A stretch of DNA of 64,000 nt, from positions 15,162,150-15,226,149 of the forward strand of contig NC_134026.1 of assembly GCF_964204645.1 (NCBI RefSeq). The letters run 5' to 3'. The stretch is from Tubulanus polymorphus. Lineage: Eukaryota; Animalia; Nemertea. The position numbers and the translations under genes were made by a program. Shown in pieces: positions 3,461 to 41,848 of this stretch (the stretch's first letter is position 1; every line of letters starts with the position of its first letter). The notes below the pieces were generated by a model. It was not told the DNA's origin and did not search any database. It was given only the letters and a program-made list of their open reading frames with translations.

Positions 3461-3477
3461 ACATTCCGTGAACCAAC

Positions 3478-9838: not shown

Positions 9839-9840
9839 AA

Positions 9841-14895: not shown

Positions 14896-15199
14896 GATCT
14901 CTTTGTTGTTGTCTGTAAGGGTTAACCTTAGCGTTCCTAAGGGCCTGTTGGGTGCAGTGATAACTTGTACTAATCATTGAATATGTATACATAGTAGTAA
15001 TTAATCTTAAAAATTTTTCTGCTGTGGGTTTCTTATCTTTCTTGCGGTAATCTCGTGAGATGTAACTCGTTTATAGAGATGTATTCCTTCCTCCTTCTCT
15101 TGGAGGGGGTTTAAAACTATTCTCCACCCTTTTTCTGGCTAGGATGCCACCTTATATACTCACTGACAAGTGGGTTCAATTCGGGTGAAGTTACTTAAG

Positions 15200-15200
<1 letters not shown>

Positions 15201-15237
<37 letters not shown>
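15201..15237. repeat. (TA)n microsatellite just upstream of the ORF3 acceptor
   Basis: Visible TA run. Confidence 0.95.
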
Positions 15238-15240
<3 letters not shown>

Positions 15241-15276
15241 CTTTGTTTTCTCTTTTTCTATACATTTTCAGTGAAT

Positions 15277-16086: not shown

Positions 16087-16134
16087 CCTTATATATATAC
16101 TTTACCTTTGTCGCCTTTTCTGAGCGGGTCGCTC

Positions 16135-16152
16135 AGGGCTGGTGGGGGGCTT
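16135..16152 (+). promoter_or_regulatory. Polypurine-tract-like plus-strand primer site
   Basis: G-rich agggctggtggggggc immediately before the 3' LTR TG. Confidence 0.65.
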
Positions 16153-19712: not shown

Positions 19713-20062
19713 TACAGGCTTGACTGATTTTCTCTTAACTTTGTTTAGTTAGGGGTGGAACGAAGATGTGCCCTATTGTGTTTGATTTCTGTAGGTCATC
19801 CAAATGGCTGCCCCAGCCATATTCCTAGAGCGTAATTTCACCGGTCACCATTTTGGGTTTCGACAAAATAATGAAATATCTAAATACCAGTAAAGAAAAA
19901 TTTATTGAGCTAAATAAACATCTTTGTTTCTACCACAAACCAAAGCGGCTATCAAGAATAATCTTACCAACTGCTAATTTTGTTACTTGCAAAATATTGA
20001 GTCAACCTTCTTGATTTGAACGTTCCAGTTAACCAGTTCGCTAACTTTTTTCACGTTCTGAT

Positions 20063-20670
20063 GTTTTATTTTATTTTATTTTATTTATCGTATCATTTCA
20101 CACAAAAATGTAGAAAGATACACACAAGTTTACAGGATAGAGAAATTGGAAAAAAAGAAGAAAAAAAAAGATAACCAAAAATATTACAAAATAACATAAT
20201 CGTTTTAAAATCAGTACAAGAAGACAAAAAATGTTTTACCAAAAAAGATTTACACTTTTATATCAGACATAAATATTCAATTATATCATCAATGTTGCTG
20301 TCATTTGATTCATATCTTAGGTCAAGGAAATCTCGAATATGTGTGGCAGATTATGAGACATCATAATCATCATTTAAAATCAACGAGGATATAATATTTC
20401 TATTCAGGTTAAATTCATAGCAAATATGAGTAAGAGTATTTCCTGTCGGGGAATTACTGCCAGAAATTAAAATTTTACTGAGGATTTGAAGTACAGTATT
20501 ATTACTTTCACACATGCTTATAAAAAACTTAATGAATCTATTGAATAGCTGTAATTGAATTGGGAGATCATCACAAATACCATGCAAAAGATTGGAGTGA
20601 GTGCGGTAGGGCAAGTTAAAAAGTTTGCGAACAAATTTTCTCCAAGTGATAAAAAACATAGGCCTATTTA
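20063..20670 (-). mobile_element. 5'-truncated non-LTR retrotransposon (LINE) 3' end
   Basis: ORF fragment TWRKFVRKLFNLPYRTHSNLL...QLFNRFIKFF resembles a post-RT LINE C-terminus. It is followed by a 3' UTR and an (AAAAT)n tail. Confidence 0.65.
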
Positions 20671-21328
20671 CATCGGCTTGTTTCAAAAAATTTTATATTG
20701 ATGTTTTGAAATAGGCTTAATTTCAAATATTTCATAATTAGATAAAAATGCAAATTAAGGCGCAATGGTTTAATTGATAACTGGTGTAACTTTATTTTTC
20801 AGTTGGAAACAGATTTTATAAGAGGCAACGTAAGTTCTTTTATCTTGAATTGAAATTCACTTGGATGTTATATGTAGGCGTTTTAGAATGGAAGGGAACA
20901 GGAAGAAAATAAAAATAAAATTCCTTTTATTATTTGAGTATTTTCCACATAAAACCTGCAGAAAAAGAATTTTTAAAAATTGTGATGAATTTTATTCAAA
21001 TGATGGGAGAAATTTAAAAAGAACTAACATTTTTTTTGCTTATCATGAGATTAGAAAATTAAGATGAACATAACTTTTGCCAGTTACTGGGTTGAAAATC
21101 AAGATGAGCACACAAATTGGGGGTGTTTTAAAGTTTGAAAACACGTACGGAGGACTAAAACATGTTTTTCTAAATTTGATGATTTTTGCAGAATTCCAGG
21201 AGCTGGATTCGTTCTATTAGTAAAATAAAAAGCCCTTAGAATGTGATTAATTTACAAAGATTTTGCATGTTTTGAAAAATACTGAACTGACCTGATTATA
21301 ACTTTACTGATAATACTACATATCTCAG

Positions 21329-24214
21329 GGCTTGCTAGCAGAAAATTCAAGATAACCGCAAGCTATCTCGCTTCAATGAATGATATGGCAACAGCAATTA
21401 TCATTGATCCGTATCTCAGATTAACAACCCACAAAATGTGCAATTCGTAAGTATAAATATTTTCATAAACTGAGTATCTTTTGTTTCTACTACAGATGTC
21501 GAGTACAAACTAACAGATTTGTATATCAATGTACATTTATGGCTCTTCATCTTTATTAGAAAATCTTTAACAGAGCAGGAAGCAGTTTTAGCTGGTAATG
21601 CGATTCACAGTTTTGTTCGTGTTGGAGATTATGATGCTTGTTATGAAACATTTGTAAATTTTGAAGTGGTCAACGCATTCCTTAAAACAAAAACCTGTGA
21701 TGAAGTTGAAGCTTTCAAGGATCACGTAAGGGTTTATGTATACCTAACGTTCGAATCGACCATATTCAGGGCTTCAAAATGGCATTTTTTATTTTTGCAT
21801 AGGATATATACATTTTAGAAGTTTGAGATAAAAGACCCAAAAAATCTGTTTATAATGAATTAATTTTCTGGTGACATTCCAAAAAGAATAATACAATGTA
21901 CCACATATTACGAACCAGAGATCCATTAACATTTTGACTAAGAATACGTACATAGACCTACATGATGAATTGATAGGCTCACGATGTATATGGATTGTAG
22001 TTTTCTATTTGTATATTTTAAATATTGCATTTACATTCCTATTCAATACTTGTTTACTTGCATTGTTTATTGAATTGTTTGTTCAGATGTTTCGTTATAT
22101 GAATATCTTCAATGAAGTATCTGGATTTACCATTGAAAAATGTAATCATTATTCAAAGGATGAGCATATGGGAGCTCATATTACTTCGACAAAGTATTGG
22201 TAAGTTGGCTACTATTTTAAAAGGTTTATGAAGAGGTTTCGGGTTTAGATCTCATTTTTTTTGTATAGAATGCTAACCATATGCGTCTATAGTATTTTCA
22301 TGAAAAAGATCACGATAAAAGCCCGTAGCTACGGGTTGCTTGTGATAGCGCGCTGAAATCAATGACGTCATTCTGAGAGCGCTTCTCTTGCAGCACACTC
22401 TGAGGCATTTTACATGTAATAGAATGTTCATTTTGTTGATTTGGCATATCTCAAAAACCTTTTCATGATCCTTTTAAGTTATGATTTCTTAAAAACTCTT
22501 CTTAATTTCACCAAGGAAATATGCTAGATTCTTTTAAAAAGCTTTTTGTTCCCTGCCCGGCGTTTAACTGATATTTTAGAGTATGATTTCCTCTGGGGAG
22601 AGGATGTACCGTAATTTTGGGTAATTGTACCTGATTTTGGGTTTCTAGGGTCGCATTTCAAGGTCTCCTCAACATTCTTCATAGCATTATTATTCCATTT
22701 CCCAATTGACCCAATTTCCATGCACTCCCTTTACTATAGTAAGGTTAACCCTGGGTACACTAATCATTTTTGGATACCCAAGGTCAGGGTATTCAGGAGT
22801 CATTTCCTACTGCTATCGTGGGGGACAAGATATGTAGTATCAAATTGCCGTTTTCGATGCCTTATAAAACGTGACCATTATGAAACCTAAACAATGTTAA
22901 CTATTCAGCGTTTTACAAACGACAACCGTAAATCGATGTGCAAAACGTCACAGGTTTATGTGTACACATACAAGCTTTGGTTATAGATTATAGACAAAGA
23001 TGTAGAATGTCTTCCTGTGATTATATAATGAGCTCTATTTGAATGTCGAAATATTATATTGCATTGAATATCATGAGAAGACGTATTGTAAAAGTAATGG
23101 ATGTATGATTATATCAGAAGCGGCAGGCGTAAATAGAAGTGATAAGTAATTCGGATTAGTTGGTCAAAATGGCGGATGTATACACGATGTGGAAGTCTGA
23201 TATAAAAGTAAGGGCCTGACATGGGGATGCTGGTGGAATGACGAAGCTATCTACGATCTGTGTAGGGCCGGCGTGAATTTTATCGTGGCTACAAGGGGTC
23301 TATATAAAAATTTGTAAACATATAATTTCAATATTCAAATGGTTTAGAAAATATGTTTGATATTAGGAATGTGCAGGTTTCAGGAGAACGATCCCAATTA
23401 GCAATTTATAATAGCATAGCTGTCGTATACGGCTCCACGTCCTCTGATGGCATAAAAACATTAAACCACTATTTACAATCGAAGACCTGTATCACCTACC
23501 CAATCGCCAAATCTTATAATCCCCCAAATTTCTTAAAAACTTCGGTTTCAAATTTGCAATCCCACATTAGCTTATCCCCAAAATTCTACATTTTTCGCAG
23601 ACATCAAATAATTTGTTAAAATTAATTTTCTTGTTTGTCTTTCGTTAAGGTCAAAAAATGATAAAATTAGGCCACTTGCATCACTAAATGTTGATATTGA
23701 TCCAGACGAAGAGGAAACACTGCTGAAACCGGGCATCAATGACTTCAGCATTGTTTATTCGTGTAGAAAGAAGGTATCTCAACTATGGCTGGGACCAGCA
23801 TCATTCGTAAACCATGACTGCAATCCTAACTGCAAAGTAAGTACAGTATATATCTTTGACACACTCTCATATCTTCATTTTTAAAATAGTTAATTTATGC
23901 ACAGTGTCTTATTTTTCCATTTGTCATTCAGTATTTTAAGGATGAATCTGATAGTACTTGTGTTGAAGTTATCACTACCATTGTACCGGGTGAGGAGATA
24001 ACGTGTTATTATGGAGAGGATTTCTTTGGAAAAAATAACTGCGACTGTGAGTGTGTCACTTGTGAAAGGTGAGTAGTTTTGGTGCCTTATTTATGATTAT
24101 TAGTTATTAATTTCAATTGACATCTTACATCATTTGATCACGATTTTTTTTGTTCCAGTAAGCAAAATGGTGCATTTTCTCAACGATCTTCCTCAACAAA
24201 AGACCAAAATCACG
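21329..24214 (+). CDS. Suv4-20: Divergent Suv4-20/KMT5B-C-like H4K20 methyltransferase SET domain. Exons 21329-21446, 21560-21725, 22087-22199, 23650-23836, 23932-24068, 24159-24214; start exon not found and downstream exons disrupted
   Basis: GT-AG exons splice in phase with no stop: [20 protein letters not shown]...[24 protein letters not shown]...KYW/SKNDKI...[34 protein letters not shown]...[34 protein letters not shown]. This is colinear with recalled SUV420H1 sequence. Confidence 0.9.
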
Positions 24215-24968
24215 GTACATATCTAAAAGAATTGTGTTAAAGGATTTTCAAATGAAATAATTTCCTGTATTCAACTAATGCCTTAATATTTGACTCAAAC
24301 CATTTATTTTAGATCTCCTGCTTTTAGCCCACCTGGGACTCATGTCCCATCGGGCTATTTGTGTTCACTTTTCAGAATCAAGATGGCCGACTGGCGGCCA
24401 TTGTTATTCGACAGAATCAGCACTTTTTACATCAGCATTTTTGAAGTTTTCAAGGAAAATTTTAAAAACGCTTAGATCAGTTATCTTCATATCTCATATT
24501 TATTTTTATCCTCCAAGGCCCATCAGTATCAGAAAAATTGGGTCGATCGGACTCAAGACTGCCACCCAGTGACCTTTTTTGTGCCCAAAAAGATCAATTT
24601 TGGCCTGAATTCTGAGACCTGTAGCTTCCTAATGCTTTGCCATTTTTCATTGATATTCGTGATCGGCATTCTTTGGAGAGGGATCATTAGCAGATCAGAC
24701 GGGTTTTGTGATCACGCAATTGGCGGCAATCTTAGTGTCATCAGTCCTCATTCATAGGTGGAAAAAGGTTTTTTGAGGAAAATGTCAACTGGTTTTAATT
24801 TATAGTCTTGATATTTGATTATTATTAGCACTGTCATAGGATACAACTCCTCACATGGAATTGGATCAGCCAAATTTTTGTTCTTGCCACCAGGGGGAGA
24901 TTAATATTGAAATATAGCTGCAAAGCAGCGATAACGGGTTTTCTGCACAGTCTTAGAATCCTGTTCAA

Positions 24969-25205
24969 CGGTGGATTTTGACGAAGCATTTGATAAGGCA
25001 CAACATCAGCCATTACTTAACAGGCTATTAGGAAACAGTTTCAATGATAGGTTGCGCAAATGGCTCAGCAGTTATCTCTGAACGAAAACTTGTAGCTGAT
25101 ATCAACGGAACGCCTCATCTTGGAATAAGTCGGTCAAACTAGTGGAGTCACGCAAGGTAGTATCCTAAGTTGTCTTCTGTTTATTGTCCTGGCAAATGGC
25201 ATACA
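24969..25205 (+). pseudogene. Decayed CR1/L2-type reverse transcriptase fragment captured in the family-2 HINE (second copy at ~45735-45975, minus strand)
   Basis: VDFDEAFDKAQHQPLLNRL...WLSSYL...ING...SGVTQGSILSCLLFIVLAN, with frameshifts, matches the DFxKAFD...SGVPQGSxLGPLLF RT motifs. Confidence 0.8.
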
Positions 25206-26246
25206 CAGTAATCCAACATATACCAGACCGAGTAAATTTCCAAATCGACCTTAACACGCTGTTCGACCAAAAAACTTAATGTTCCAACAAGAAAATCTTG
25301 TTCGAATGAAAATAATTCTGTTTGATCGAACAATACGCTTTTTGCTTGAACCAAAAATTTTCTTCATTCTGACAAAAAATGTGTTCGAATAAAAAGCTAT
25401 GTTATTGTTGAAATGAAAAAAAATTTGGTTGAGCGAAAACAATTTTTTTCGAACGAATGTTTGAATGAAAACAATTCTGTTCGATTGAACGAAATACTTA
25501 ATACTTTCGGTTCGGAGAAAAAACTTTTTTCAATATACTTGTTCGAACGAAAAACTTAATGTTCTGACAAGAAAATTCTGAATCTGTTCAAATTAAAACG
25601 ATTCTGTTCAATTGAATGATTGTTCGAACGAAAAACCTTTCGTTTGGACAGAAAAAAGTTTGTTCAACTTTGTTCTAACGATTTTTTCAAATTGGTTCAA
25701 TTGTATAGAATATTATTGGTTCGAACGAAATAAATTTTGTTCCGACGAAAGAATTTTCAAGCGAAAGGTCTTTTGAACGAAAAAAAGATATTTCTGGTAC
25801 TCCGCAGTAACTTAAAGCCAGACGTAGGTTGTTCTTGTGACACGATGCGATCCTCGCGTTGCATCGCAAGTTTCGATGCAAGTCACTTGCAATACGATTG
25901 TGTGCGACTAGTTTCTGCCAGTCGCAAGAGCGCGTCGGTTGGTTGTGACAGTCGTGTCGCGTCGCAGAAAGTAGAACACGTACGACTCCATGTGACTGGC
26001 GTTGTTGAAAGATGAGGACTGAGTTTCAAGTCGTCAAAACATCACGATATGTCGACATATTCATGTCGAATTGATGCGATATATCGACATAAATATGGCG
26101 ACTTGTCGAGTTGGAACGCAACAAGTCGAGGCCCTTTATCGCTTCCGTAGATCTTTCATTAAGTAGGATCACTTGAATGATCGCTTTAATATCACTTTTA
26201 AAAAAAAGGGATCTGCCAAAATGACCTTAATATTCGACACTATATC

Positions 26247-26660
26247 TACGGAAGCGATAAGGGGCCTCGAGATGACGCGTTCCAACTCGACAAGTCGCCA
26301 TATTATTGTCGACTTGACGCGATATATCGCGTCAAGTCGACATGAATGTCGATATATCGTGACGTTTTGACGACATATTTCGTTTTCTCAACCATTTTCC
26401 TCGCGACAAGTCGACATATTCATGACGACTTGAAACTCAGTCGTCATATTACTGGCGTCCTCATCTTACATTTAGACATGTCTTCAAATGACGGCTTGTC
26501 CCGTGGAAAATGAGCAAATAAGCGAAATTTGTCGTGAAAACGTCACGATATGTAGACATATTCATGTGGACTTGACACGATATATCGCGATATATCGACA
26601 TAAATATGGCGACTTGTCGAGTTTGAACGCGACAACTCGAGGCCCTTTATCGCTTCCGTA
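26247..26660. mobile_element. MITE (414 bp) with TIR TACGGAAGCGATAA(G/A)GGGCCTC and 7-bp TSD CTATATC; partial second copy at 26015-26149
   Basis: Long inverted arms. ctatatc occurs at 26240-26246 and 26661-26667. The element is absent from the other family-2 HINE copy. Confidence 0.85.
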
Positions 26661-26749
26661 CTATATCAGATTAATCGACTTAAATAGGCGAAAGCATAAG
26701 TCTTTATTACGTTATTAATTGGCCTAATTATTCAAAAGCTAATAATGTA

Positions 26750-29090
26750 GGCGACAAAACCAAAAAAATTAATTGTCGCGGGCGATAAAACCAAAATAAT
26801 CAATTGTCGCGGGCGATAAAACCAAAATAATCAATTGTCGCTGGCGATAAAACCAAAATATTCAACTGTCGCGGGCGACAAAACCAAAAAAATGAATTGT
26901 CGCGGGGGATAAATCCAAAATAATGAATTGTCGCGGGCGACAAATCCAAAATCATGAATTGTCGCGGGTGACAAAAACAAAATATTCAATTGTCGCAGGC
27001 GACAAAACCAAACTAATGAATTGTCGCGGGCGATAAAACCAAAATAATGAATTGTCGCAGGCGATAAAACCAAAATATTGAAGTGTCGCAGGCAATAAAA
27101 CCAAATTAATGAATTGTCGCGGGCGATAAAACCAAAATAATGAATTGTCGCCGGCGATAAAACCAAAATATTGAATTGTCGTGGGCGACAAAACCAAAAT
27201 ATTGTTTTGTCGCGGGTGACAAAACCAAATTAATGAATCGTCGAGGGCGATAAAACCAAAATAATGAATTGTCGCGGGCGATAAAACCAAAATAATGAAT
27301 TGTCGCTGGCGATAAAACCAAAATATTGAATTGTCGCGGGCGACAAATCCAAAATCATGAATTGTCGCAGGCGACAAAAACAAAATATTCAATTGTCGCG
27401 GGCGACAAAACCAAACTAATGAATTGTCGCGGGCGATAAAACCAAAATAATGAATTGTCGCAGGCGATAAAACCAAAATATTGAAGTGTCGCAGGCGATA
27501 AAACCGCGACAAAAAGAAAAAAAATTGTCGCGGGCGATAAAACCAAAATAATGAATTGTCGCGGGCGATAAAACCAAAATATTGAATTGTCGTGGGCGAC
27601 AAAACCAAAATATTGTTTTGTCGCGGGTGACAAAACCAAATTAATGAATTGTCGCGGGCGATAAAACCAAAATAATCAATTGTCGCGGGCGATAAAACCA
27701 AAATAATGAATTGTCGCTGGCGATAAAACCAAAATATTGAATTGTCGCGGGCGACAAATCCAAAATCATGAATTGTCGCGGGCGACAAAAACAAAATATT
27801 CAATTGTCGCGGGCGACAAAACCAAACTAATGAATTGTCGCGGGCGATAAAACCAAAATAATGAATTGTCGCAGGCGATAAAACCAAAATATTGAAGTGT
27901 CGCAGGCGATAAAACCGCGACAAAAAGAAAAAAAAATTGTCGCGGGCGATAAAACAAAAATCTTGAATTGTCGCTATTGTCGCGTGCGACAAAACCAAAA
28001 TAATGAATTGTCGCGGGCGATAAAACCAAAATAATGAATTGTCGCGGGCGATAAAACCAAAATATTGAATTGTCGAGGGCGACAAAACCAAAATATTGTT
28101 TTGTCGTGGGTGATAAAACCAAATTTATGAATTGTCCCGGGCGATAAAACCAAAATAATGAATTGTCGCTGGCGATAAAACCAAAATATTGAATTGTCGC
28201 GGGCGACAAATCCAAAATCATGAATTGTCGCGGGCGACAAAAACAAAATATTCAATTGTCGCGGGCGACAAAACCAAACTAATGAATTGTCGCTGGCAAT
28301 AAAACCAAAATAATGAATTGTCGCAGGCAATAAAACCAAAATAATGAATTGTCGCAGGCGATAAAACCAAAATATTGAAGTGTCGCAGGCGATAAAACCG
28401 CGACAAAAAGAAAAAAAAATTGTCGCGGGCGATTAAACCAAAATAATGAATTGTCGCGGGCGATAAAACCAAATATTGAATTGTCGTGGGCGACAAATCC
28501 AAAAAATGAATTGTCGCGGGCGATAAAACCAAAATCTTGAATTGTCGCTATTGTCGCGTGCGACAAAACCAAAATAATGAATTGTCGCGGGCGATAAAAC
28601 CAAAATAATGAATTGTCGCGGGCGATAAAACCAAAATATTGAATTGTCGAGGGCGACAAAACCAAAATATTGTTTTGTCGTGGGTGATAAAACCAAATTA
28701 ATGAATTGTCCCGGGCGATTAAAAACAAAATAATGAATTGTCGTGGGCGACAAAACCAAAATATTGTTTTGTCGCGGGTGACAAAACCAAATTAATGAAT
28801 TGTCGCGGGCGATAAAACCAAAATAATGAATTGTCGCGGGCGATAAAACCAAAATAATAAATTGTCGCTGGCGATAAAACCAAAATATTGAATTGTCGTG
28901 GGCGACAAATCCAAAAGATGAATTGTCGCGGCAGAAAAACCAAAATCTTGAATTGTCGCGGGTGACAAAACCAAATTAATGAATTGTCGCGGGCGATGAA
29001 ACCAAAATAATGAATTGTCGCGGGCGATAAAACCAAAATAATGAATTGTCGCGGGCGACTAAAACCAAAATTATTGATTTGTCGCGTTAT
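26750..29090. repeat. 31-bp minisatellite AATTGTCGCGGGCGA(T/C)AAAACCAAAATAATG with higher-order blocks
   Basis: Visible array. Variant units recur at ~400-450 bp spacing (e.g. ~26937, ~27340, ~27751, ~28203). Confidence 0.97.
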
Positions 29091-31470
29091 TTTAGTTTTG
29101 TCGTTTTGTCATAATGTCGCCCTCATTTGCATATACGTGTTTTTTTTACGCATGGCCCTTATCAGCCACCATACTAAAGCCTTAAGGTCGCGTATCGAGT
29201 TTTACGGTAAAACTCGATAAACACTTCAAGCGACACAGCGAACGATCTCCTTTCCCCCACAGCGAAAGCTTAACCTAGTAGAGGCTACTAGCCTATGTAG
29301 GCCTATGTATATGCGTAGGCCTAACATCCGGACAGATTGGTCTTAGGCCTATTGAATTTAACAACTCACCTAAATATCTTTTTTTTAAATAATTAATTTT
29401 GTTTTGAAGTTCAATCCAATGAGTCCGTTAATAAACGCAACAATTGTACTGTGTTTGTTTGATACAGTAAAGCTCAGTACCGGTAGGCCTTAAGCCGCGT
29501 CAAACTCGATAAACACTTCAAGCGACACAGCGAACGATCCCTTTCCCCACAGCGAACGCTTACTCCGAATGTCAAGTGTGAGTCCAGCATACGGAAAGGA
29601 TTGTGTTATATACTTGTATTTAGTAAATACCTTGTGGATTTGACAATGATCGGTATGTACTGTAGGAAATAGGCCTATAGAGTATTGATAAATGGTTGAA
29701 GCCCGCGGCCGAATAAAGTAATATATTCTTTTATTTTGATACCTCGTCGACATAACAGCTTTTCTCCGCCATATCTCTTCGGCCTGTTTAGTTTAGGCCT
29801 ACGATTCCCCGGTACACTAAAGATTTATCTTAGTAAATACACGGTTAATTCGGTAAAGAAAAATTGGTATTGTTAAACGAACTCCTTGAAACCCGCAGCC
29901 AAATCACTGGTAGTAATAAATTAATTTGTCCTCGATTTGATTCTCATGATGAGGAGAAACTCGCAGCTCATCCCCGGAACGTCGATGTAGTAACACACGT
30001 CGATTCGTCGATGTTTACGGCTCGACAGTGCTTTTAAAATCTAAAGTAGTAAATTTCCAGTGTATCGGTAATATGATTTGATGAGGAAAATGGGCTATTG
30101 TAAAAATCACTGTTTGAAGACCGCGACTGAATTTGAAGTCTGCACCAATAAATTAGTTCATTTATACTTGAATTGATAATCGAAGTGACAGTCGGCCTGC
30201 GGGTTGATTTCGGGATGATGACTCGAAAAACATGTCGCCCCATTGAATGGGGCTAAATTTTCGATGTTTACGGCCCGACAGCGCTTTCGTAACGATGATT
30301 CGTGAAAAAACACGCGGGCTATTTGTAGATCTCAGTAAGCTGAACGATATTATATGGATTGTATATGAAACAGCGGTAAGGTAACAAAGCCTATGTTCTT
30401 TTGGTAAAAATAGTGTGGAAGAAAATAATAATAATAATAATCACGCGGATATCAATAGGGTTTTCTGTGAAATAACAGAAAACCCTAATTATGTATAATT
30501 TGAATATATTTATATTTTATAACAACAATCACTTGCAAAATTGTAGCTCATGACATGCTCTATGATTGTGCTGAATTAATGTTATTGGTTATTGTATATG
30601 GTCACCAGGGGGCGTTGATTGGGTTAATTACTTATTATTTCAATATTACATCGGTACCTAAGGCATATTTTGTTACCACAATCAATTGCAAAATTGTAGC
30701 TCATGACATGTTCTATACATTTGGTTTCAGGGTCATTGGTTTTTTATAGTCACCAGAGGTCGTTGAATAGCCGAATAACTTAGTGTTTCCTTATTACATT
30801 GGTATCGATACATATTTTGTTACCGCAATCAATTGCACAATTGTAGCTCATTGTGTTTGGTTTCTGTATGTGTTCACCAGGGGGTTAATATTGAAAATGT
30901 CAGATTGTTGTGCATTTCAAATCACTTCCAAGTGGGTATGGTATCCCTAGACCCCTAGTTCTCATTTATTGATACCTATCAATTGTTCTGTTTTATTCAA
31001 ATCTTAGTATCAACTTTGGAAAACGATAGACAAAAGCTAAAGGTAAAATCTTTAAGTCAATTGCTTTATAATAATGTTTTATCCCATCACCTCAACTGTC
31101 TAGGATTCCTATACATTAATTCTATGTTACTAGCCTTCTGTAAAGAATTTCTGATGCATTTACAAATTATCCAAACGTATTTTCTTTAAAAATTCAGTAC
31201 TGTATCAATTCCAATAAAGGTGCTTTTATACATAAAGCGCCCCTAGGAAATTTCAGTTTAAAAACTTACTGAAAAGGTGTCTCAGAAAATGAAAATTGTT
31301 TAACTTATTAAATGTGAAATGTGAATATCAATTATTTAGAAGAGTGAGGATAATGGAATGTTACATCGAAACCAACAAAATGATGTGCTTGATGGTGGTG
31401 GTGAAGATGGTCGTGCTGGCTGGTGGTGATGATGGTCCTGGTGTTGATTTTGGTTGTAGAGATGGGTGTG

Positions 31471-31740
31471 ATGATGGAGATGTTGGTAATGGTAATGATG
31501 GAGATGTTGGTAATGGTAATGATGGAGATGTTGGTAATGGTGATGATGGAGATGTTGGTAATGGTGATGATGGAGATGTCGGTAATGGTGATGATGGAGA
31601 TGTTGGTAATGGTAATGATGGAGATGTTGGTAATGGTGATGATGGAGATGTCGGTTATGGTAATGATGGAGATGTTGGTAATGGTAATGATGGAGATGTT
31701 GGTAATGGTGATGATGGAGATGTTGGTAATGGTGATGATG
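31471..31740 (+). repeat. 24-bp minisatellite reading (DGDVGNG[D/N])n, possibly within a decayed exon ~31340-31793
   Basis: About 11 copies of gatggagatgttggtaatggt(g/a)at, with ttAG upstream and aag|GTGAAT downstream. Confidence 0.85.
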
Positions 31741-34119
31741 ATGTTAGTTCAACGGATAAGATTGACTTCGTTTGTAAAATGAGTATCGAAAAGGTGAATT
31801 GACATTTACGTATCATAGTTGACAAAAAAAATGTGAAAAAATGGGAGCTTATTAAGCAAAAGTTAATACAGTAGGAGATTATACAGTAAAACCTCTATAG
31901 TGAATGCCTGTGGGACCGAGCATTAATTGTTTATCATTGTATTTTTGTATCCCGAGGGCCAATTGTCAACATATGAAAAGTTTTGTCAATCGGACACCAC
32001 AAGATGGCCATCCTAGGTCATTTTTTGGCCTGAATTCTGAGGACCTGTAACTTCCTAATGGATTTCCATTTTTCTTTGAAATTCATGGTGGGTAAACTTC
32101 TGAGAGGGATCTTGAACATATCAGAGAGTTTATAATGCAATCAGTAGCGATCTTAACTTCCCATAGTGATCCCTAGTTTAATTTCATGTCTCTTAATGTC
32201 ATCTTTTTAATCTGACAATGAAATTTTGTCTCCAGCATTGCGTTTAGATTTTGCAATATGGGCAATTTCTATGTTGCTCTTTTCAATATAAGTATCCAAT
32301 TTCAATGTGAATTTTAAGCGACTTTGTTTTAGTTTGTTCAAATTTCAGAAAATTCCAGTTTTCAAGGTTCCCCAGAAAATGAAAAATGTTTAATTCTTAA
32401 AATGTGAATGATAATGAGATTCTATCCATTATTTAGATCTTACATATTATGGATAAGAAGAAAGATTGATGGTATATTGGCAAGATGACATTAAGCAAAA
32501 TTCTTTGCGCTTTTAGGAAATGAACAAAAATTTCTCTTCCAGCACAAATGTGTTAGTTGAACTTCCATGATTTGAAATTGGGCTGATGCTATGTTTATTT
32601 AAGGAGCATTTATTTTCAGCCCAGATGGCCGTCCTATTGCCTATTGCGCCCTTAAATGTCATTCTGACCTGAATTTCTGTTCCTTAGCTTATTAATTAAC
32701 AGCGTGCCATTGGTTAAAACTGACTAATCTTACATATTATGGATAAGAAGAAAGATTGATGGTATATTGGCAAGATGACAAAAAAATTAAGAGCTCAAAA
32801 ATAGTTGCATAATTTATTTTACAGAAATTGATGGCACGACTGATGTTGAGGATGTCACAGCGAAGAAATATAAATCCCCTATTTTGGAGGTTGATTTCCG
32901 AGAATTCCGTTATGACAATAATTCACTCCTAGAAAAGGGTACGAATTCATTGAATATTCGCTCAATAAGTTAGATAGTAACCAAAACGTAATAAATATCT
33001 TCTAGATGTTCCTGTGTATGCATCTATTTTTCCCACAAATCTAGAATCGATACATCAGTCCACATATCTTAGAATGAACAATGACTATGAACATCGATGA
33101 AAAATCCATTACGGACAGATGACAAGTTAGTTGTCAGCCAAAGTTAGAAGTCTTTTAGCACAATTATTTCCTCGTTTAGGAAGTGAACAAATATTTCTAT
33201 CAACACAAATGTCATCCTTTACATTAGAGTATAATGCCTAATTTGAAATTGGGCTGATCCTGTGGTTGAACCCTAGCTTATTTTGGGAGCATTCTTTTTC
33301 AGCCTAGTTGACCATCCTATGAGCCTGCCTTTTGTGCCCATTAGTCATTTTGGCCTGAATTTCAAGACCTGTAGTTTGTTTTTATTAAAATACTTTGGAT
33401 TTACTTTAGGAACGGATCAGATATCAGAGAGTCTCAATTCTCAATCAAATTCTCAATTCTCAGAACGGATCAGGTTTTTTGTACATTCATTTTTTATGCA
33501 AGTGCAGCCATCTCATCCATAACGAGAGAAATCCCACAATAAATAATTATTTATTGTGGAATTTCTCTCGTTATACTTCATACACGGATATTGTGTATTT
33601 TCTCGTCTCATCATCTCATCCATAGTCTTCATGCATGTGAAAAAGTGTTGTAGTCTTGAAATATGGTGATTGTTGAGCACTGTCATGTCATAGGAAACAT
33701 CTCCTTACGTGGATTTGGGGTAACCCAGTTTTTTGTTGTTGCCATGAAGGAAGCTTATTATTGAATTATATACAATTTTTCATTCATATTGTTGCCTACA
33801 TTCATTTTGTCACCACATTCAATTGTAATTTTGTATAGGTCATGACATCCAGTATAACTGTGGTGATTTTCATGATCATCGATTTATAAATGTGTTCAAT
33901 GGATATCTAGTATTGAAAGTGTCGGATTGTCTAGTATTCAAGAATTTTATTTAATTTTACTATCAACACACAGAAACAAGTTGGTTGAATTACCAATATA
34001 ATCTTAATGATCCTGACAAATTTCAGATCGAAAAAACCAAAGCTGTAGATCAGGAAATCAACCTCGTAATCGCACTGATAAGCAATTTGAAAATCTCAAT
34101 CAAACTTGCTTTAAAAGTA

Positions 34120-34910
34120 AAAGATGCGTCAAAGAAGTCTGTCCCATTAGTAACATCAGGGTGGCTAAAATACCCCGTCATTTAAGAACTGTACATGGAT
34201 TGCCAGATGTAAAAGCAAAAAACTGGAGGTTTGTAGAAATAAAAAACCTGGTTCCTTGTAACTTACAGGATTTGGTAGTTCCATATGTACCAGATGTACT
34301 AGCACGTCCACTCCGATGCAGTACTGGCAATCTTTTGTCATCACATCCCTACTGTCTTAAAACATTTGGCAGACGATGCTTCCAATCTATTGCCTCAACT
34401 TTGTGGAACTCTTTGGATTCAGAGATTCAGCAAATTGATGATCTGAACACATTTGAAACTTTCCAGAAAAGCATATGGACTTTAGCAGTTTTTCACTACC
34501 GTTAAAGCACTGGTGAACATTATTTTTGAATGAAACAGGCGCTGTATAAATGTATATATTATTATTATTATTATTGTTATATAAATTCATATCCTACCAA
34601 AGGTGTACCGGGTATTCTCGTGATTAGAAAACTTTGTTGGTGATTTACCTACCTAACTGAACTAGCGTGAAATGAAAAGCAACAATTATTGCACAGGATA
34701 TTTGGTTAAGATTTACTTAAAAAAATACAAATCATATTTATGCAAACACTGTTGTAAACCTATATTTAAATTCAATCTTCCAGGGAGTATTTTAAGATTG
34801 GTAGAAAAGTAAGATCGGACAGTAAAAATGTAAAGAAAAGGCCCAGGAAGAAATGTGATATTTGTAGTGTGGTAGTATTTAGGTTGGACAGGCATGTGTG
34901 TTCTGGTAGG
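34120..34910 (+). pseudogene. Decayed CxxC...RH zinc-finger-like coding segments downstream of the SET exons
   Basis: VCPISNIRVAKIPRHLRTVHGL (~34136-34205), YLCKHCCKP (~34735) and KRPRKKCDICSVVVFRLDRHVCS|GT (~34835-34905), separated by stops and an L2 insertion. Confidence 0.5.
34247..34580 (+). mobile_element. L2/CR1-group LINE 3' end fragment
   Basis: PYVP..RPLRCS..LL...KTFGRRCF..IASTLWNSL..EIQ C-terminal motif, then a short UTR ending gcgctgtataaat and an (ATT)n tail. Confidence 0.8.
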
Positions 34911-35392
34911 TTTTTATCTTTTTCAATACTTCTGTTTTGCTAGGATTCTTGTTTCACACAAATTAATGTTTGGCGAGTGAGGTGTACAAAGATATTGAAA
35001 TCTACATGTTAAAATGTCGATGATATTATGTTTGAGTTTAAATATTGGTTTTGAGAAAGATAGTCCATTCCGAAAACAATTTCTGGTAATAATTTGAGAA
35101 CTGCCATGGTTTTCAATTCCGATGAAACATTTTTTCCACAGAGAAGTTTCATCTAGAGATATATCTAATGTTACACATTATCATGAAACATAGTTCTATA
35201 ATGCATTGCACTTTTATTTTTCATTTTATTCCTTATCAAAACAAGTCAAAATTCGCCCCGTTCAAATGAGCAAAGCGGTTACTTGTGAAACAGTTATCAA
35301 TTGAATCAATGTGAATTTTAAAATATTATGTTTTAGGCGAAAAAAATCATGAAAATCTTAGTCAGAAGGAAGAACAGAAAGAACCACAACAG

Positions 35393-36730
35393 CATGTTCT
35401 GGATTTTTGTTTTGTTCTCTAAAAGATGGATGCCCGCCAAGTCCTGCAATGACCATGCATGTTTCCGTTATGAGCACTTGTAATGACGACTGTAAATGTT
35501 TTTACTAAGTGTATAGAATTCGAATTGAAATATATTGCCACTATTGGTCAGTATGTTGTATTGACTTCTTTTCAATTAGAATTCTATACATAATTACAAC
35601 ATTTTTTCCAGTGGTCATTACAGGACGTAAGTGGTCATAGCAGGACCTCAGTGCTCATTGCACGGCTTAGTGGGCATCCATATTTTAGAGAATAAAAATC
35701 AAACAAATCCAGTTCCAAAATTAAGTTTTAATGATGAATTTCAGGTCAGTTCAGTAGGTAGCATTTGACTAGTTGTACATGTTCTTTTGAATAATTTTTA
35801 AATTTCAAGTATATCAAAATATCGGTGAATCTTTCGTTGTTCGGTATTTTGATATACAAGTGTTGGGGATATAAGTATCAAAGATCTATATGATTCCTCT
35901 AGTAATCATTATAATGTTTCTCAGTTAACCTCGCCTTCCTCGGACATTTTTGACCTTTTGCTTTTAACTTGGACAAAATTTGGATTTACTTGGATTTAGT
36001 AGTTATCAAAATACTGGAAAGGTTTACATGAAAGATGTTCGATGAAGATATTTGAAAGATGTTCGATAAAGCATTTTCTGAATATCAAATTACTGGAAAG
36101 GTTTTTATGAAAGACGTTCCCAAGAAGGTTCAAGGAAACGGCAAATTAAAATCAATTGTAGAAAAGCAGAACAAATCTGCTGGTAATAAACGCTATGGAT
36201 TCGAGAAGTTGTAAATTATAGGTTTACAAAAAGCAAATTTTCCAAAAAGTAACATATTGCGTATGTTAAATAATTCACTGACTTGAAAATATGATGTTCT
36301 GGATTTTTGTTTTGTTCTCTAAAAGATGGATGCCCGCCAAGTCCTGCAATGACCACTGAGGTCCAGCAATGACCATGTATGTTTTCGTTATGAGCACTTG
36401 TAATGACGACTGTAAATGTTTTTACTAAGTGTATAGAATTCGAATTGAAATATATTGCCACTATTGGTCAGTATGTTGTATTGACTTCTTTTCAATTAGA
36501 ATTCTATACATGATTACAACATTTTTTTCCAGTGGTCATTACAGGACGTAAGTGGTCATAGCAGGACCTCAGTGCTCATTGCACGACTTAGTGGGCATCC
36601 ATATTTTAGAGAATAAAAATCAAACAAATCCAGTTCCAAAATTAAGTTTTAATGATTAATTCCAGATCAGTTCAGTAGGTAGCATTTGACTAGTTGTACA
36701 TGTTTTTTTAAATAATTTTTAGATTTCAAG
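35393..36730 (+). repeat. Direct duplication of ~420 bp (35393-35809 and 36294-36730) containing a palindromic MITE-like element
   Basis: Near-identical blocks with internal IR ggatttttgttttgttctctaaaagatggatgccc / gggcatccatattttagagaataaaaatcaaacaaatcc. Confidence 0.9.
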
Positions 36731-37904
36731 CTCAAAAAATCTAACTAACCATGCTTAAAGAGGCCTAACGGTCCTCTTTTTTCCTGGTTGGGCTAGGTTT
36801 TATTGATATTGCAATAAATGGAGGCATTACAATTTTTGTGCATAAAAAGTAGAAATAGATTTCTTGGTCTAAATTCAGACAGTGTATAAATTGTTGATAC
36901 GTTTGTAAGTCATTGACCTGATAATGACTGTTTAGATTTGTGACAAACTGCTAATAAATCGTATCACTTCATTAACATAATTGTTCTGTTTTGATTTGCC
37001 TTTTTCATATTTGGTCGTGTAGATATTCATGTCGCTATAGGTTCCGTGGATAGGCTATAGGCCTCTGAACATCACTGATTTATCTACCATGAAGCCTTAC
37101 TTCATTTCGCTTCTAATTATGGCAGATTTAGTCGAATTTACTGTAGTTAGTTTTACAGCCTATCTAACAAAAGGTATATCGAATTTCAACCTTCTGCTGT
37201 GACCTTCCACGCGTACGTACTTTGTTGCCATTAAAATTACGAATGGCAGAATTGGAAAGTGAGGCCAGTGGAAATCAGAGCTTTCCTTTAACGCCATGGG
37301 CCATCAATGAAGCTAATCTAAATCTAAAAAATAGCTCATTTGAAATATAATGTCATACCTTCTATCCCGAATGAACAACAGATTATTACTAATGAAACCC
37401 ACCAAGGATGATTGTTTGTTAGTTTCGTAAACTTTTTTTGTGGGAAAAGCTGTATAATCACAATATCTTAGTCAAATCATGGACGTACTTAACTAGATAA
37501 TCGTGAGAACGATTCACCGTTTACGTTGAATTTGATCGGTGAAACACAATCCAAAATATCTGTACCATAGTGTCCATCTGTTTAAAAATTGGCCTCAATG
37601 CTCACAACCTGTTGAGGACCTACATAACGACAACTGAGGAATTGCAATGACCAAATTTACCGGGACAATATAAAAATGATCAGGGGTAGGTACGGGTTTA
37701 GCGATTTTAGGTTGAAACTGGTTGGAGTCTGCATTGTCTTATGAATATGCCTTAGACTATCTTTTAAATTCTAATGCCTACAGGTCTGGGAGGTTGTAAG
37801 ACCATCGGGGCTATATAGAGATTCTTGCGATGTGTTAGGAGGTACTCAGGCTAAGGGACGCATAAAGGTAATCAGACATTTAGACTGATGCTCATTTTTA
37901 CAGA

Positions 37905-38231: not shown

Positions 38232-41200
38232 ATTATTATTATTATTATTATTATTATTTTCTTTTTCACACTGGATCTTACTGAAAGGATATAAACAACT
38301 GCAATTTACTTTCACTGTTGATGAAACCATTCTGGATCACAAGTACTACGCTGCATTGACAAATACCGTATGTAACATTAATTAGAATTGCACTGTTTAC
38401 TCACTGTGAGCCTCTAAACATCGAAATTTAAGCCCGATTCAAACAGTATCCATATACGTATATGTATTGTATACGTGTCTTATGCCCACAGTGCCTCCTA
38501 AGTACGTGTGTTTGTGTGTCTATCCTAAAATGCATTGATAGAACTGTGTTGTTCTAGATCTGTAGTAAAGACGTAAGCAGTAGTGATATTTTTATCTGTT
38601 CTACAAGTCGATTGTTTTGCCGTTGAATTAGGACATTGCTCGACTGAACGCAACTGAGGAATTTTTAATAGCCTTGTTTGTGTGTGTGCCGTATACAAGT
38701 TAGATAGCATATATAGCTTCGAATTCGGCAACACTAGTTAGTGAGCATCATATATAGGCTTTAATACTTCGAATTCGGCTAGTAACAAGAATATTGCTCA
38801 ACGGATTTACTTGAAACTTACGTGAGATGTACGGAACACATGTACCTTGAGGTGAGTCTAATGGCTCTTTGATTGGGGACCCAGTTCACACACCAGGGGG
38901 CGTTTTACTTTTGCAAATTCTGACATCGAAAAGTTACTGTGTGAGAAAAATTTTTGTCTTTGAGTTTTCAGCTTCGGCCGGGCACGAAAGTTGTTCATGA
39001 CAGCCCGGAGGCTAAAAAAGTCAGTGGCACGCCCTATCTGCGATTAACCGTTTGGGCTCGACGGGCTCGAAAATGGGCCCCCAAATACAAGAGATTTTTG
39101 CTCCTAGGTCCTTAACCGTTGGAGATAGAATTGTAGTTGCACCGAGTGATCAGTAGCCCTTGACAAGACGCTTGTATTGATGTATGGTATAACTATGTAA
39201 CTCATATGGTTCTCCAGTAGCGCCACCTATAAGACGCTGGAAAACACATTTTCATCTATATCGACTAAGGGTACTAATGGATTTCTTTAAAAATTGATAC
39301 ACATGTACCTGGTTACTAAACGAATCGAACCCCTTATATGACTAGTTCCCATTTTAACCACTAGGGGGCGTAAATTTTGAAAAATCGATTTCAGAATCCA
39401 TTTTTCGCATTGAATGCGGTCTGTTTATTATGAAAATCACAAAACTTGGTATAAGTACAAAGACATGTGTAATATGCCATCCTGCATAATTAGTTCATAC
39501 AACTGCCACCAGGGGACCTTGAAAATGATTTTTGCTCCTAGGTCCTTAACCGTTTGCGATAGAATCGAGGTTGCAATGTGCGCGTAGTAGCCCTTGTGGG
39601 TCAACATATCCATGTCATAAGTTGACCCCTAGGTGGCGCTCCTTTAAAAAGGGGAACGTTATGAACTGCTTTCGGTGAAATGTTCCCTTACAAAAAATTC
39701 ACACATGTTATATGTGTGAATAACACACATTACATGTGTGAAAGGTGTGAAAGACACAGAAAACACATGTGATTCCAGCTATCACATGTGTGATCTGTGT
39801 TGTGGAGCATATCACATGTGTGAATAACACATGATCACATGTGTGATTCTGAAATACATGTGTGATTGAGAAATACATGTGTGATTCACACATGTGATTG
39901 GCTCAACAACACAGATCACATGTGTAACCGCTAGGATCACACGTGTCATTAGAATAACACATGTGATTAACATCAGTTATTCCAATCTACAACACAGTGT
40001 GAATATTTCGGATATGAACCATTCCCATGTTGGTTCCAAATTCTGAACATCTGCATTTTAGTCATAGAATCCATGTTGGAATAAGAATATTTCCATAACT
40101 GTACTCGTTATTTCAACATTTTCAACACATGGTTAGATTTTATCTAACACTGACACCCCTACTGTGCAAAAACCAAGAACCAATGTCCACGGACTAGTGA
40201 GTTTGTATTTTCATTCGGCTAAATAAATAAAATAAGGTTATGATATGTTTTTACATTCGCTGTTGAGTTCTAAAAAAATATTAATATTCAAAAACGACTT
40301 TTAAAAAATTAGCAGGTATTTACGGGATTCGAACCGTTGACGACGGCTAGCAAAGGACTTGGAATGAGCATGCAGGCACGCACGGCGCCATTTGCAATTA
40401 TTTCGAGGATAGTCGCTGCTGTTTTTAATCAATTTTGATGGTTAATTTCTTAGTTCGAAAAGTCTGGTGTTTGAATCCAAGCTCAAAAGCAAGTATTATT
40501 GTGTTTCGTCAAATATTCATAGTCGATGATGTTAATTGAATGTACTGTAATCGGTAAAATCAGTGGCGTGTACCAATCAATCAATTAAATCAAATTCATC
40601 CAAACTTTATTTCATGGACATGATTGATGCATTACAAATATTTCATGATTGATGCATGCAAAGTACAACATGTCCATGCCTAACAAGTAGGCCTAGATTA
40701 CACCATGAACTATTTTTAAATCACGATATGTCCAGGAATAAGACACTCGTTTGCATACTAATACTATATTTTATAATTCCTAAACTGAATGCTCAGCCGG
40801 TATTGAACAGTATTTGCCAATTCTTTCTACATTGGAATGAATCATTTACAAATTAAAATGGAATTTTCCGTTATTAATCTAGGGAGTCAGTACATTTCCT
40901 CGAGTAGTAATTTATCTACACGGAGAATGAAACGTATACTTTCAGCCGGAACAAATTACTGAAAAAGAGGTTTTGAGTCCTGTTATGGTAAGTGTTGATT
41001 GAAAAAATTTATAAGCTAGTGTTACAATAGCGCCGTTTTTCGTCTGGTTTCACTTATCATAATAATGTAACTTTGGCTTTTTTCATCAGATGATTGATAT
41101 TAGGGATATTGATTTATTGATTTATTGTTTGGAATTGTGTGTAGTATTTAAATGTTTTATAATTTTGTCTCATTCCAGATCATGTTCTGAATTGTAGATT

Positions 41201-41848
41201 GGGGGTTACCGCGGCCCAAATTAGAAAGAAGATTGGACAAATGCTGAAACAGTATAAATTGACGAAGTAAATCTGTAAATATTTGAAAATAAAATTCCCA
41301 TTAACATGTAAGCTTACACAAGTGAGTTATTACATTTGGTTGGTAATTTTGAAACTTCATTTTGTTTTGCCAATATGCAGATCTCCTTTCAGGCAATGAG
41401 TTTTTAGGAAATTGTGAAGTATGGATGAAACATCATGTCCAATGAAGGAAGTGGTCAAATTTTGACCATTATGAATGTGTACTTATACTTCTTCTTGAAT
41501 ACAGTCGTGTGGAGCTGGAACAATGAGGATGACTGCAGATCACATGCGTTATAAATCACACATAACTGTGTTATATGACATGTGTGATTTACATTCAGGG
41601 CTGTATCACACGTGTGATTCACATGTGTAAAAATGGGACAAAATCACATGTGTGATTTAGAAAATCACACGTGTGATTCACATACAGAATCACATGTGTG
41701 ATAATGTCCCATTTTTACACATGTGAATCACACGTGTTTTTAAAAAAAATCACATGTGTAATTTTTTTGTAAGGGTTTGCACGCACCCTTGTACGACATT
41801 GTATCCAGCAAGGCAGAAACCCGTTATCGCTGCTTTGCAGCTATATTT
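38163..41848 (+). mobile_element. Family-2-related HINE, 5' end missing, starting at an (ATT)n microsatellite and ending head-to-tail with the next HINE
   Basis: (ATT)n followed by ttttc..cacact as in family 2. The 3' terminus is gcagaaacccgttatcgctgctttgcagctatattt at ~41815-41848. Confidence 0.6.
39685..41775. mobile_element. Non-autonomous EnSpm/CACTA-like TIR element (CCC...GGG ends, possible 2-bp TT TSD, CACATGTG subterminal arrays)
   Basis: TIR cccttacaaaaaattcacacatg / catgtgtaatttttttgtaaggg. Dense CACA(T/C)GTG repeats at 39700-39970 and 41540-41760. Confidence 0.75.

What the first reader, a model, noticed from the sequence alone, without database searches (positions are those of the whole stretch)
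21329..37900. Divergent Suv4-20 SET domain followed by transposon-type zinc fingers: possible chromatin-writer-carrying mobile element
Seen: six clean SET exons that are much more diverged than expected for the normally conserved single-copy gene. Decayed same-strand segments follow: an acidic repeat exon, CPI...PRHLRTVH and RPRKKCDIC...RLDRH fingers, and fragments such as PWIGY...STMKPYFISL (~37045-37090) and VKHNPKYLYHSVHL/AHNLLRTYI (~37540-37630). From recollection, such fingers and fragments resemble the large zinc-finger/tyrosine-recombinase (Crypton-like) proteins of marine invertebrates, which often carry a PR-Set7-like SET. Inference: a mobile element captured the H4K20me2/3 writer with its introns. 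The recombinase assignment is weak because I could not read the catalytic residues.
Basis: partly seen in the sequence, partly recalled or inferred. Interest (0 to 1): 0.75.

Follow-up and report, generated by a model that had tools for sequence, protein, structure and literature searches.

The report
Altered Suv4-20 joined to transposon fingers
A strongly diverged but unbroken copy of a histone-marking enzyme gene (Suv4-20) lies just upstream of exons for a transposon-type zinc-finger pair, and is likely the remnant of a jumping gene that captured the enzyme and then lost its DNA-cutting part, with changed active-site residues that would stop it from writing its usual histone mark.

Summary
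Six clean, collinear Suv4-20 exons are real (21329-24214) and only 40-44% identical to ordinary orthologues. The two finger exons are real too. They match the finger pair that opens an animal family of zinc-finger/tyrosine-recombinase proteins, and they join the SET exons in one stop-free frame. Subtracting one split repeat leaves about 0.5 kb between the SET exons and the acidic segment.

No termini were found. The SET exons are single-copy at 80% or more identity in one contig set. A MITE breaks the tail.

The SET has Tyr at the Phe281 switch (a change that nearly abolished SUV420H1 activity) and has lost Ser283, Arg286 and Arg357, so it is probably not a standard H4K20me2/3 writer. A multi-copy grouper family has the same Tyr.

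Best reading (0.5): a recombinase-less relic of a transposon that captured Suv4-20. Mobility is inferred, not shown. Unchecked scan notes report recombinase-SET fusions elsewhere in this genome and a recombinase-SUV4-20 fusion in another genome.

The parts
20803..20829 (+). Candidate upstream micro-exon (phase 1 to 1, fits exon 1). No start codon located; in-frame Met at 21377 is an alternative start
   Evidence: splice scores 4.0/3.9 on a rough matrix of my own; no homology; inferred
21329..21446 (+). Suv4-20 exon 1 (N-terminal helical region)
21560..21725 (+). Suv4-20 exon 2
   Evidence: profile E 1.3e-9
22087..22199 (+). Suv4-20 exon 3
23650..23836 (+). Suv4-20 exon 4: SET core; keeps S251, S255, R257, K258, W264 and the NH motif; M253V, I271V (human numbering)
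23932..24068 (+). Suv4-20 exon 5: begins with Tyr at the Phe281 switch; S283K, G285E, R286S; keeps Y307 and the post-SET cysteines
24159..24240 (+). Exon 6: weak phase-1 donors at 24215 and 24236; unspliced it runs through a remnant of the acidic-patch motif (R352K) and stops at 24238-24240, before R357
24322..30960 (+). One dispersed repeat with a 154-bp array, split in two by a 5.6-kb insert (24906 to about 30511) that carries a 31-bp satellite; not part of the gene
   Evidence: the two halves align to adjoining parts (60438-61042, 61040-61710) of an unsplit copy
31340..31793 (+). Asp/Gly-rich low-complexity segment (24-bp unit x11.4), likely a frameshifted linker exon; donor at 31794
   Evidence: inclusion in the transcript not shown
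32825..32938 (+). Linker exon, phase 1 to 1, stop-free
   Evidence: best-scoring candidate exon
34027..34228 (+). Finger 1 exon; second Cys replaced by Ser
   Evidence: (24.4 bits, E 3e-6)
34784..34905 (+). Finger 2 exon (C-x2-C...H-x-C)
   Evidence: joined pair collinear with P0041 (pairwise E 4.5e-9)
35337..35744 (+). Former coding exon split by a 314-bp MITE (35399-35712, CTGGATTT ends, TT on both sides); first stop now at 35420; donor at 35745
   Evidence: without the MITE the exon is 92 nt, stop-free, phase 1 to 0
36056..36211 (+). Decayed segment weakly like the C-terminal helical module of the finger/recombinase family
   Evidence: 6 of 200 and 9 of 300 shuffles reach the score; not found in the window-wide scan; weak
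36294..36741 (+). Second copy of the MITE plus flanking exon end; here with a stop and no donor
   Evidence: 12 substitutions and 3 indels in 424 aligned nt
37041..37173 (+).
37536..37647 (+).
41163..41293 (+). Candidate last exon, weakly Myb/SANT-like; stop 41268-41270, AATAAA at 41288
   Evidence: Pfam Myb_DNA-bind_4 E 0.034 in a batch of 71 (about 2 such hits expected by chance); 2 of 200 shuffles on the family helical module; weak

Best explanation
Six intact exons of a strongly diverged Suv4-20 methyltransferase lie upstream of exons for a transposon-type zinc-finger pair, and they likely form one spliced gene that is likely the recombinase-less remnant of a tyrosine-recombinase DNA transposon which had captured the host enzyme with its introns. 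How the parent likely worked (all inferred): one protein read SET, acidic linker, finger pair, core-binding and recombinase domains, helical tail. The fingers held the element's own DNA, the recombinase excised and re-inserted it, and the tethered SET methylated a lysine at that spot. Because fingers would do the targeting, the nucleosome contacts of the host enzyme (R286, S283 loop, R357) were free to go. Tyr at the switch position would turn the me1-to-me2 enzyme into either a monomethylase or a catalytically weak chromatin binder, and I cannot separate these. In this copy no recombinase is detectable, a MITE cuts the frame 27 codons after finger 2, and finger 1 has lost a zinc ligand. It cannot move by itself, and would at most make a SET-plus-fingers protein of about 430 residues. 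Shown: exons, frames, residues, finger family, insertions, absence of a recombinase signal. Inferred: splicing from SET to fingers, former mobility, enzyme activity.
For: Stop-free 404-codon frame across nine exons, SET to finger 2. Only 487 nt between exon 6 and the acidic segment once the split repeat is removed. The finger pair belongs to a family with core-binding and integrase-like domains (weak Pfam PF00589 hits in 5 of 14), with R-K-R-H-Y in 54, 56, 47, 51 and 51 of 58 aligned members and clusters of up to 582 members. Weak matches to that family's C-terminal helical module lie downstream in the expected order. Long branch (2.4-2.5 against a median 0.3 in the 16-row tree). A second diverged Suv4-20 family, at 90% or more identity on three different grouper chromosome-size records, also has Tyr at the switch in 4 of 5 sequences read. 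No host gene among the long ORFs of the window; those tested were transposon genes.
Against: No core-binding or recombinase signal: best scores 7.8 and 3.9 bits against 6.4 and 7.5 in the reversed control, and both best hits lie far outside the locus. Only 311 nt separate the donor at 35745 from the helical-like segment, so a deletion must be assumed. No termini or flanking microsatellites seen. SET exons at single-copy depth (29-35, like the unique flank) with one contig each at 80% likeness. 0 of 126 family proteins carry a Suv4-20 SET and 0 of 51 Suv4-20-like proteins carry the finger. The exon 6 donors are weak and the unspliced frame ends in a normal stop, so a SET-only gene fits as well. 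I chose the downstream exons partly because they are open, which inflates the phase argument. The window copy and the grouper family are not shown to be one clade (not joined in the free tree; AU p 0.14). My profiles cover one recombinase family only.
Confidence: 0.5

Rival explanations
1. Chance neighbours: a SET-only Suv4-20 duplicate, ending at the stop at 24238, landed in a repeat-rich region next to an unrelated relic of a finger/recombinase element.
For: Exon 6 donors are weak, and read-through follows the orthologue's tail motif in register before stopping. Short SET-only forms exist in the grouper family (257-265 aa). No SET in 126 family proteins. The region is full of transposon debris.
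Against: Same strand, 487 nt corrected gap, compatible phases over three junctions. The acidic segment sits where a linker would. Loss of nucleosome contacts is easier to explain if another domain does the targeting (inference).
Confidence: 0.22
2. Domestication in progress: the SET-plus-fingers frame is a young host gene kept by selection after the tail broke, like SETMAR (SET joined to a transposon DNA-binding domain; recalled).
For: All six SET exons and their splice sites are intact while the tail is broken. Under neutral decay at the rate of the post-MITE duplication, six exons stay clean in 8% of simulations and nine in 1.4%. Present in both samples laid.
Against: With substitutions only the figure is 48%, and 28% at half the rates; the rate rests on 12 substitutions and 3 indels. 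Of 3 listed coding differences between run X1 and the window, 2 change the residue (21616, 22179), and coding sites are no less variable than introns (3 in 777 against about 6 in 1970). Finger 1 lacks a Cys.
Confidence: 0.2
3. This is the animal's only, fast-evolving Suv4-20 orthologue, and the fingers are irrelevant.
For: Single copy at 80% likeness. Intron-bearing, with the intron after the NCK motif also seen in other orthologues (P0002, P0132, L001). Two other animal sequences are as diverged (P0013, P0014). One annelid has lost the gene altogether (PMC12153100, one passage).
Against: F281Y, S283K, R286S and loss of R357 hit residues needed for activity (PMC3874154, PMC10697951). 34 of 39 homologues have Phe there, and the one Tyr is the multi-copy grouper family. 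The motif around R352 is kept in 33 of 36. An 80% screen cannot see a conserved orthologue at about 45% protein identity.
Confidence: 0.08

Closest known systems
SUV420H1/H2 (KMT5B/C), Drosophila Suv4-20 (PDB 3s8p, 4au7, 8t9f, 7yrd)
   Same: Whole N-domain, SET and post-SET layout; S251, S255, R257, K258, W264, NH motif, Y307 and zinc cysteines kept.
   Different: 40-44% identity; F281Y, S283K, G285E, R286S, M253V, I271V; R352K and no R357; followed by transposon-type fingers instead of the usual tail.
Animal zinc-finger / core-binding / tyrosine-recombinase proteins (P0041, P0047-P0105; named members from corals, plus finger-only proteins from Polypterus and anchovy)
   Same: Paired finger with the same spacing; weak likeness to the C-terminal helical module.
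   Different: No core-binding or recombinase domain here; none of 126 fetched members has a Suv4-20 SET. I found no paper that describes this family.
Crypton DNA transposons, including CryptonV (PMC3212892 passages; PMC8869645, one sentence citing Repbase Reports 2012, not held)
   Same: The inferred parent would be an intron-bearing tyrosine-recombinase DNA transposon; some oomycete Cryptons carry an accessory chromatin-related enzyme (C48/Ulp1 peptidase).
   Different: No recombinase, short terminal repeats or microsatellite target seen here; no SET cargo in the passages read.
Grouper 'KMT5C-like' multi-copy family (XP_049449900, XP_049456924, XP_049441444, XP_049895554; P0039)
   Same: Long-branch Suv4-20 copy, Tyr at the switch position in 4 of 5 read, same [11 protein letters not shown] core, altered 283-288 loop.
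   Different: Dispersed near-identical copies; no finger or recombinase in the proteins; shared ancestry neither shown nor rejected (AU p 0.14).
SETMAR/Metnase (recalled, not looked up)
   Same: Host SET exons spliced to a transposon DNA-binding module.
   Different: SETMAR uses a mariner domain and another SET class, and is a fixed, expressed host gene.

Membership tests
Suv4-20/KMT5B-C family (sequence) | N-terminal helical domain plus SET plus post-SET zinc site, best matches to Suv4-20 | tested here: met
Suv4-20/KMT5B-C family (sequence) | Ser161/251 instead of Tyr at the lysine-binding position | tested here: met
Suv4-20 as H4K20me2/3 writer | Phe191/281 methyl pocket | tested here: not met
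   Tyr here; the same change in Suv4-20h1 gave 'a dramatic loss of activity' (PMC3874154 section 13; its Supplementary Fig. S1B not seen)
Suv4-20 as H4K20me2/3 writer | Nucleosome contacts S283, R286, Y349, R352, R357 | tested here: not met
   K, S, T, K and absent (roles from PMC10697951 passages)
Suv4-20 as H4K20me2/3 writer | Measured methyltransferase activity | not testable with these tools
   needs an assay
Zinc-finger/tyrosine-recombinase element family | N-terminal paired finger | tested here: met
   finger 1 lacks one Cys, finger 2 is weak on its own
Zinc-finger/tyrosine-recombinase element family | Core-binding domain and recombinase with R-K-R-H-Y | tested here: not met
   nothing above the reversed or shuffled controls; motif scan negative
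Zinc-finger/tyrosine-recombinase element family | C-terminal helical module(s) | tested here: inconclusive
   p about 0.01-0.03 for two segments among 36 tests
Crypton / CryptonV | Short terminal direct repeats or microsatellite insertion site | tested here: inconclusive
   ends cannot be placed without a second copy; no microsatellite pair brackets the locus
Mobile element (any) | Several dispersed copies in the genome | tested here: not met
   SET exons single at 80% or more identity in run X1; older copies and the finger exons not measured
Giant inverted-repeat (foldback) element enclosing the fingers | Arms 24906-30492 and 42002-46035 are the two ends of one insertion | tested here: not met
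   the repeat that the left arm interrupts resumes at 30512, not after 46035, so the left arm is a self-contained insert
Sole orthologue | Only Suv4-20 locus, syntenic with other animals | not testable with these tools
   no genome held; no host neighbours identified in the window

The most novel reading that the evidence does not exclude
Animal DNA transposons have repeatedly captured Suv4-20 and retuned it the same way: Tyr at the switch, nucleosome contacts dropped, targeting handed to the element's zinc fingers. The result is an element-tethered, non-canonical lysine methyltransferase (for example a de novo H4K20 monomethylase) that sets the chromatin state of its own insertion site. This locus is such a gene, now being kept as a SET-plus-finger host gene after loss of the recombinase.
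Probability: 0.2. Interest if true: 0.8.

Novelty: new variant of a known kind. Interest (0 to 1): 0.45.

Why it matters
Suv4-20 writes a mark linked to silencing of repeats. A transposon carrying its own altered version would be a direct case of a parasite taking over a host chromatin writer. The natural Phe-to-Tyr change, seen here and in a multi-copy fish family, gives a testable pair of enzymes for the question of what sets product specificity in this non-canonical SET family. This copy is weak evidence by itself: it lacks the recombinase, has no close copies, and no transcript is available. Its value is as a pointer to intact relatives. Ten literature searches showed no paper on a transposon-borne Suv4-20; Repbase Reports and most subscription journals are not covered.

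Tried and rejected
No whole genome is held, so the paralogue count and synteny were not done. No RNA holder was listed; this says nothing about expression. Read depth is available only for 20500-24900; the copy number of the acidic and finger exons is unmeasured. The protein atlas gave no result.

Metagenome scan with exon 4: 18 loci; the stronger ones looked like fungal or algal Set9/Suv4-20 genes (my reading), and none has a finger or recombinase hit. Viral contigs: nothing for Suv4-20 or for the finger/recombinase alignment. The representative search with finger exon 1 gave 6 hits; P0040 is a spurious repeat match and P0043 a generic C2H2 array, and both were left out of the profiles. P0041, P0042, P0045 and P0049 were left out of the 58-row alignment.

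A by-eye likeness of 37041-37199 to a Ulp1 or OTU protease start (recalled) got no Pfam or PDB support. The giant-foldback reading was rejected. The family alignment finds only one integrase structure, at E 0.08, so the family's recombinase label rests on weak Pfam hits, source names and the conserved R-K-R-H-Y. The tree cannot place the window copy (long branch; 34 and 16 rows; proteins too short for the alignment left out). Sequence look-ups in earlier findings found no look-alike for exon 4 or P0057 and nothing near this place. No structure or complex prediction was run: single exons are too short to fold usefully.


Full report
1. Setting. No genome is held for the window. The window is AT-rich animal-type DNA crowded with repeats: two LTR elements, a hAT relic, satellites and dispersed repeats. 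The long ORFs I tested were transposon genes; small host exons could have been missed. Earlier scan notes call the organism a ribbon worm; I did not test that.

2. The SET exons. Six exons (21329-21446, 21560-21725, 22087-22199, 23650-23836, 23932-24068, 24159-24214) have AG/GT ends and give 258 codons without a stop. They cover the Suv4-20 N-domain, SET and post-SET in order and hit only SUV420H1/H2 strongly in PDB. Identity to seven orthologues (oyster, insects, springtail, rotifer, one unnamed) is 40-44%, where these share 50-73%. Of 107 near-invariant columns 31 are changed, against 0-7 in eight ordinary orthologues, and 28 and 43 in two long-branch sequences, one from the orthonectid Intoshia. 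The start codon is not located.

3. Active site. Numbering follows human SUV420H1. Kept: S251, S255, R257, K258, W264, the NH motif, Y307 and the zinc cysteines. Changed: F281Y, S283K, G285E, R286S, M253V, I271V. PMC3874154 (passages and section 13 read; supplement not seen) places Phe191/281 at the Phe/Tyr switch and reports a dramatic loss of activity for the Tyr mutant of Suv4-20h1. PMC10697951 (passages) reports that S283L substantially reduces activity, R286A loses 46%, and Y349A, R352A and R357A nearly abolish activity on nucleosomes. Unspliced, exon 6 runs into a remnant of that acidic-patch motif (R352K) and stops at 24238-24240, before R357; 33 of 36 homologues keep the motif. Of 39 homologues 34 have Phe at 281. 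Of the rest, three show V or H where the record appears to read into the intron, one has Leu, and one has Tyr. That Tyr protein belongs to a grouper cluster with copies on three chromosome-size records, Tyr in 4 of 5 read. A clade of the two is neither recovered nor rejected (AU p 0.14).

4. Copy number. Four public contig sets hold the stretch, from two samples of one study, none on record as RNA. In X1 each SET exon is covered by one contig at depth 29-35, like the unique flank, while intronic repeats reach 10^4-10^5. So there is no close family at 80% or more identity. A conserved orthologue or old copies would be invisible at that level. Three coding differences from the window are listed; two change the residue.

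5. The fingers. Exon 34027-34228 found six proteins among 1.84 billion representatives; four carry the same kind of paired finger. Following them gave a family with finger pair, acidic linker, core-binding domain, integrase-like domain and helical tail, with R-K-R-H-Y conserved in 47-56 of 58 aligned rows. Finger 1 of the window scores 24.4 bits against at most 2.4 in a reversed-window control; finger 2 scores 7.6. Joined, the two exons align collinearly with P0041 (pairwise E 4.5e-9). Finger 1 has Ser for its second Cys.

6. No recombinase. Core-binding and recombinase profiles find nothing above control in six frames. Two segments (36056-36211, 41163-41267) weakly resemble the family's C-terminal helical module (6 and 2 of 200 shuffles; 36 tests), and the second has a Myb-like Pfam hit at chance level. 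If they are real, the recombinase has been deleted between finger 2 and the tail. None of 126 family proteins hits the Suv4-20 profile, and none of 51 Suv4-20-like proteins has the finger.

7. Are SET and fingers one gene? The 7-kb gap after exon 6 is almost all one dispersed repeat (24322-30960) split by a 5.6-kb insert. Its halves match adjoining parts of an unsplit copy at 60438-61710, and the corrected gap is 487 nt. This also excludes a giant foldback element around the fingers. Exons 1-6, 32825-32938, 34027-34228 and 34784-34905 read as 404 codons without a stop. The next exon is split by a 314-bp MITE; without it the exon is open and ends at a strong donor, with it the frame stops at 35420. 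Against: the exon 6 donors are weak, the acidic segment does not fit in frame, and the downstream exons were picked partly for being open. Whether selection has kept the SET clean since the tail broke is inconclusive (8-48% chance under neutrality).

8. Mechanism and odds. Best reading (0.5): a recombinase-less derivative of a finger/recombinase DNA transposon that had captured Suv4-20 with introns. In the parent the fingers would tether the SET to the element's DNA, freeing it from nucleosome contacts, and the Tyr switch would change or weaken its product. Rivals: chance neighbours (0.22), a young domesticated SET-finger gene (0.2), the sole orthologue (0.08). Earlier, unchecked notes raised my prior for the first: a recombinase-SET-OTU-Myb element elsewhere in this genome (e1-10637641), a recombinase fused to a shrunken SUV4-20 that lost histone contacts in another genome (e1-9528649), and CACTA transposases with a SUV4-20-type SET (e1-8595887, e1-8595888). 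They are leads, not support.

9. Literature. Crypton anatomy comes from PMC3212892 (passages), CryptonV from one sentence in PMC8869645, finger-bearing nimavirus recombinases from PMC10871703 (passages, section 10), coral polinton recombinases from PMC11131425 (one passage, no SET mentioned), and annelid kmt5b/c content from PMC12153100 (one passage). PMC10055266 was seen only as a listing; its title names non-catalytic roles of SUV420H1. Ten searches showed no description of a transposon-borne Suv4-20. SETMAR is recalled.

10. Verdict. New variant of a known kind; interest 0.45.

Noticed in passing
database proteins P0039, P0106-P0110: A diverged Suv4-20 family in groupers at 90% or more identity on at least three chromosome-size records of one species, with Tyr at the switch residue in 4 of 5 read; it looks like a dispersed, mobile copy family.
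   Followed up: partly
database proteins P0047-P0105: A large animal protein family (finger pair, acidic linker, core-binding domain, recombinase with R-K-R-H-Y, two helical modules) with Pfam hits only below cut-off and clusters of up to 582 members; no describing paper found.
   Followed up: partly
window 24906-30492 and 42002-46035: Two inverted copies of one composite repeat 11.5 kb apart; a 954-nt inner part is 99% identical while the rest is 85-90%. Gene conversion between the arms or a young sub-insert; the pair could invert the finger region.
   Followed up: partly
window about 7809-18168 (+): Young Gypsy-type LTR element by its ORF layout: 2.0-kb LTRs 98.9% identical, CCTG on both sides, and an extra ORF at 15199-16083 with a C2H2 finger (Pfam E 2.5e-5) and a proline-rich stretch.
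   Followed up: no
window 807-4422 (-): End of another LTR element: integrase with chromodomain (E 6.5e-9) followed by an 876-codon open env-like frame (Baculo_F, E 5e-11); chromodomain and envelope together in one element.
   Followed up: no
window 4604-5080 (-) and 5399-5923: HNH-like frame (E 0.008) beside a 525-bp hexamer array that switches from CTACCT to CTACCG.
   Followed up: no
window 58901-62838 (+): Fragmented hAT transposase (dimerisation domain E 2.5e-6) split by the same 154-bp-array repeat family that lies in the SET locus.
   Followed up: no
window 46369-50611 and 52673-56296: Old direct duplication at 82-87% identity with a 113-bp array.
   Followed up: no
window about 34250-34520 (+) and 20060-20700 (-): Pieces that read like LINE reverse-transcriptase 3' ends (recalled likeness, not tested), in the intron after finger 1 and upstream of exon 1.
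   Followed up: no
window 31274-31340 / 32364-32437 and 36004-36040 / 36083-36119: Short internal duplications (76% and 89%) within the decayed linker and tail.
   Followed up: no
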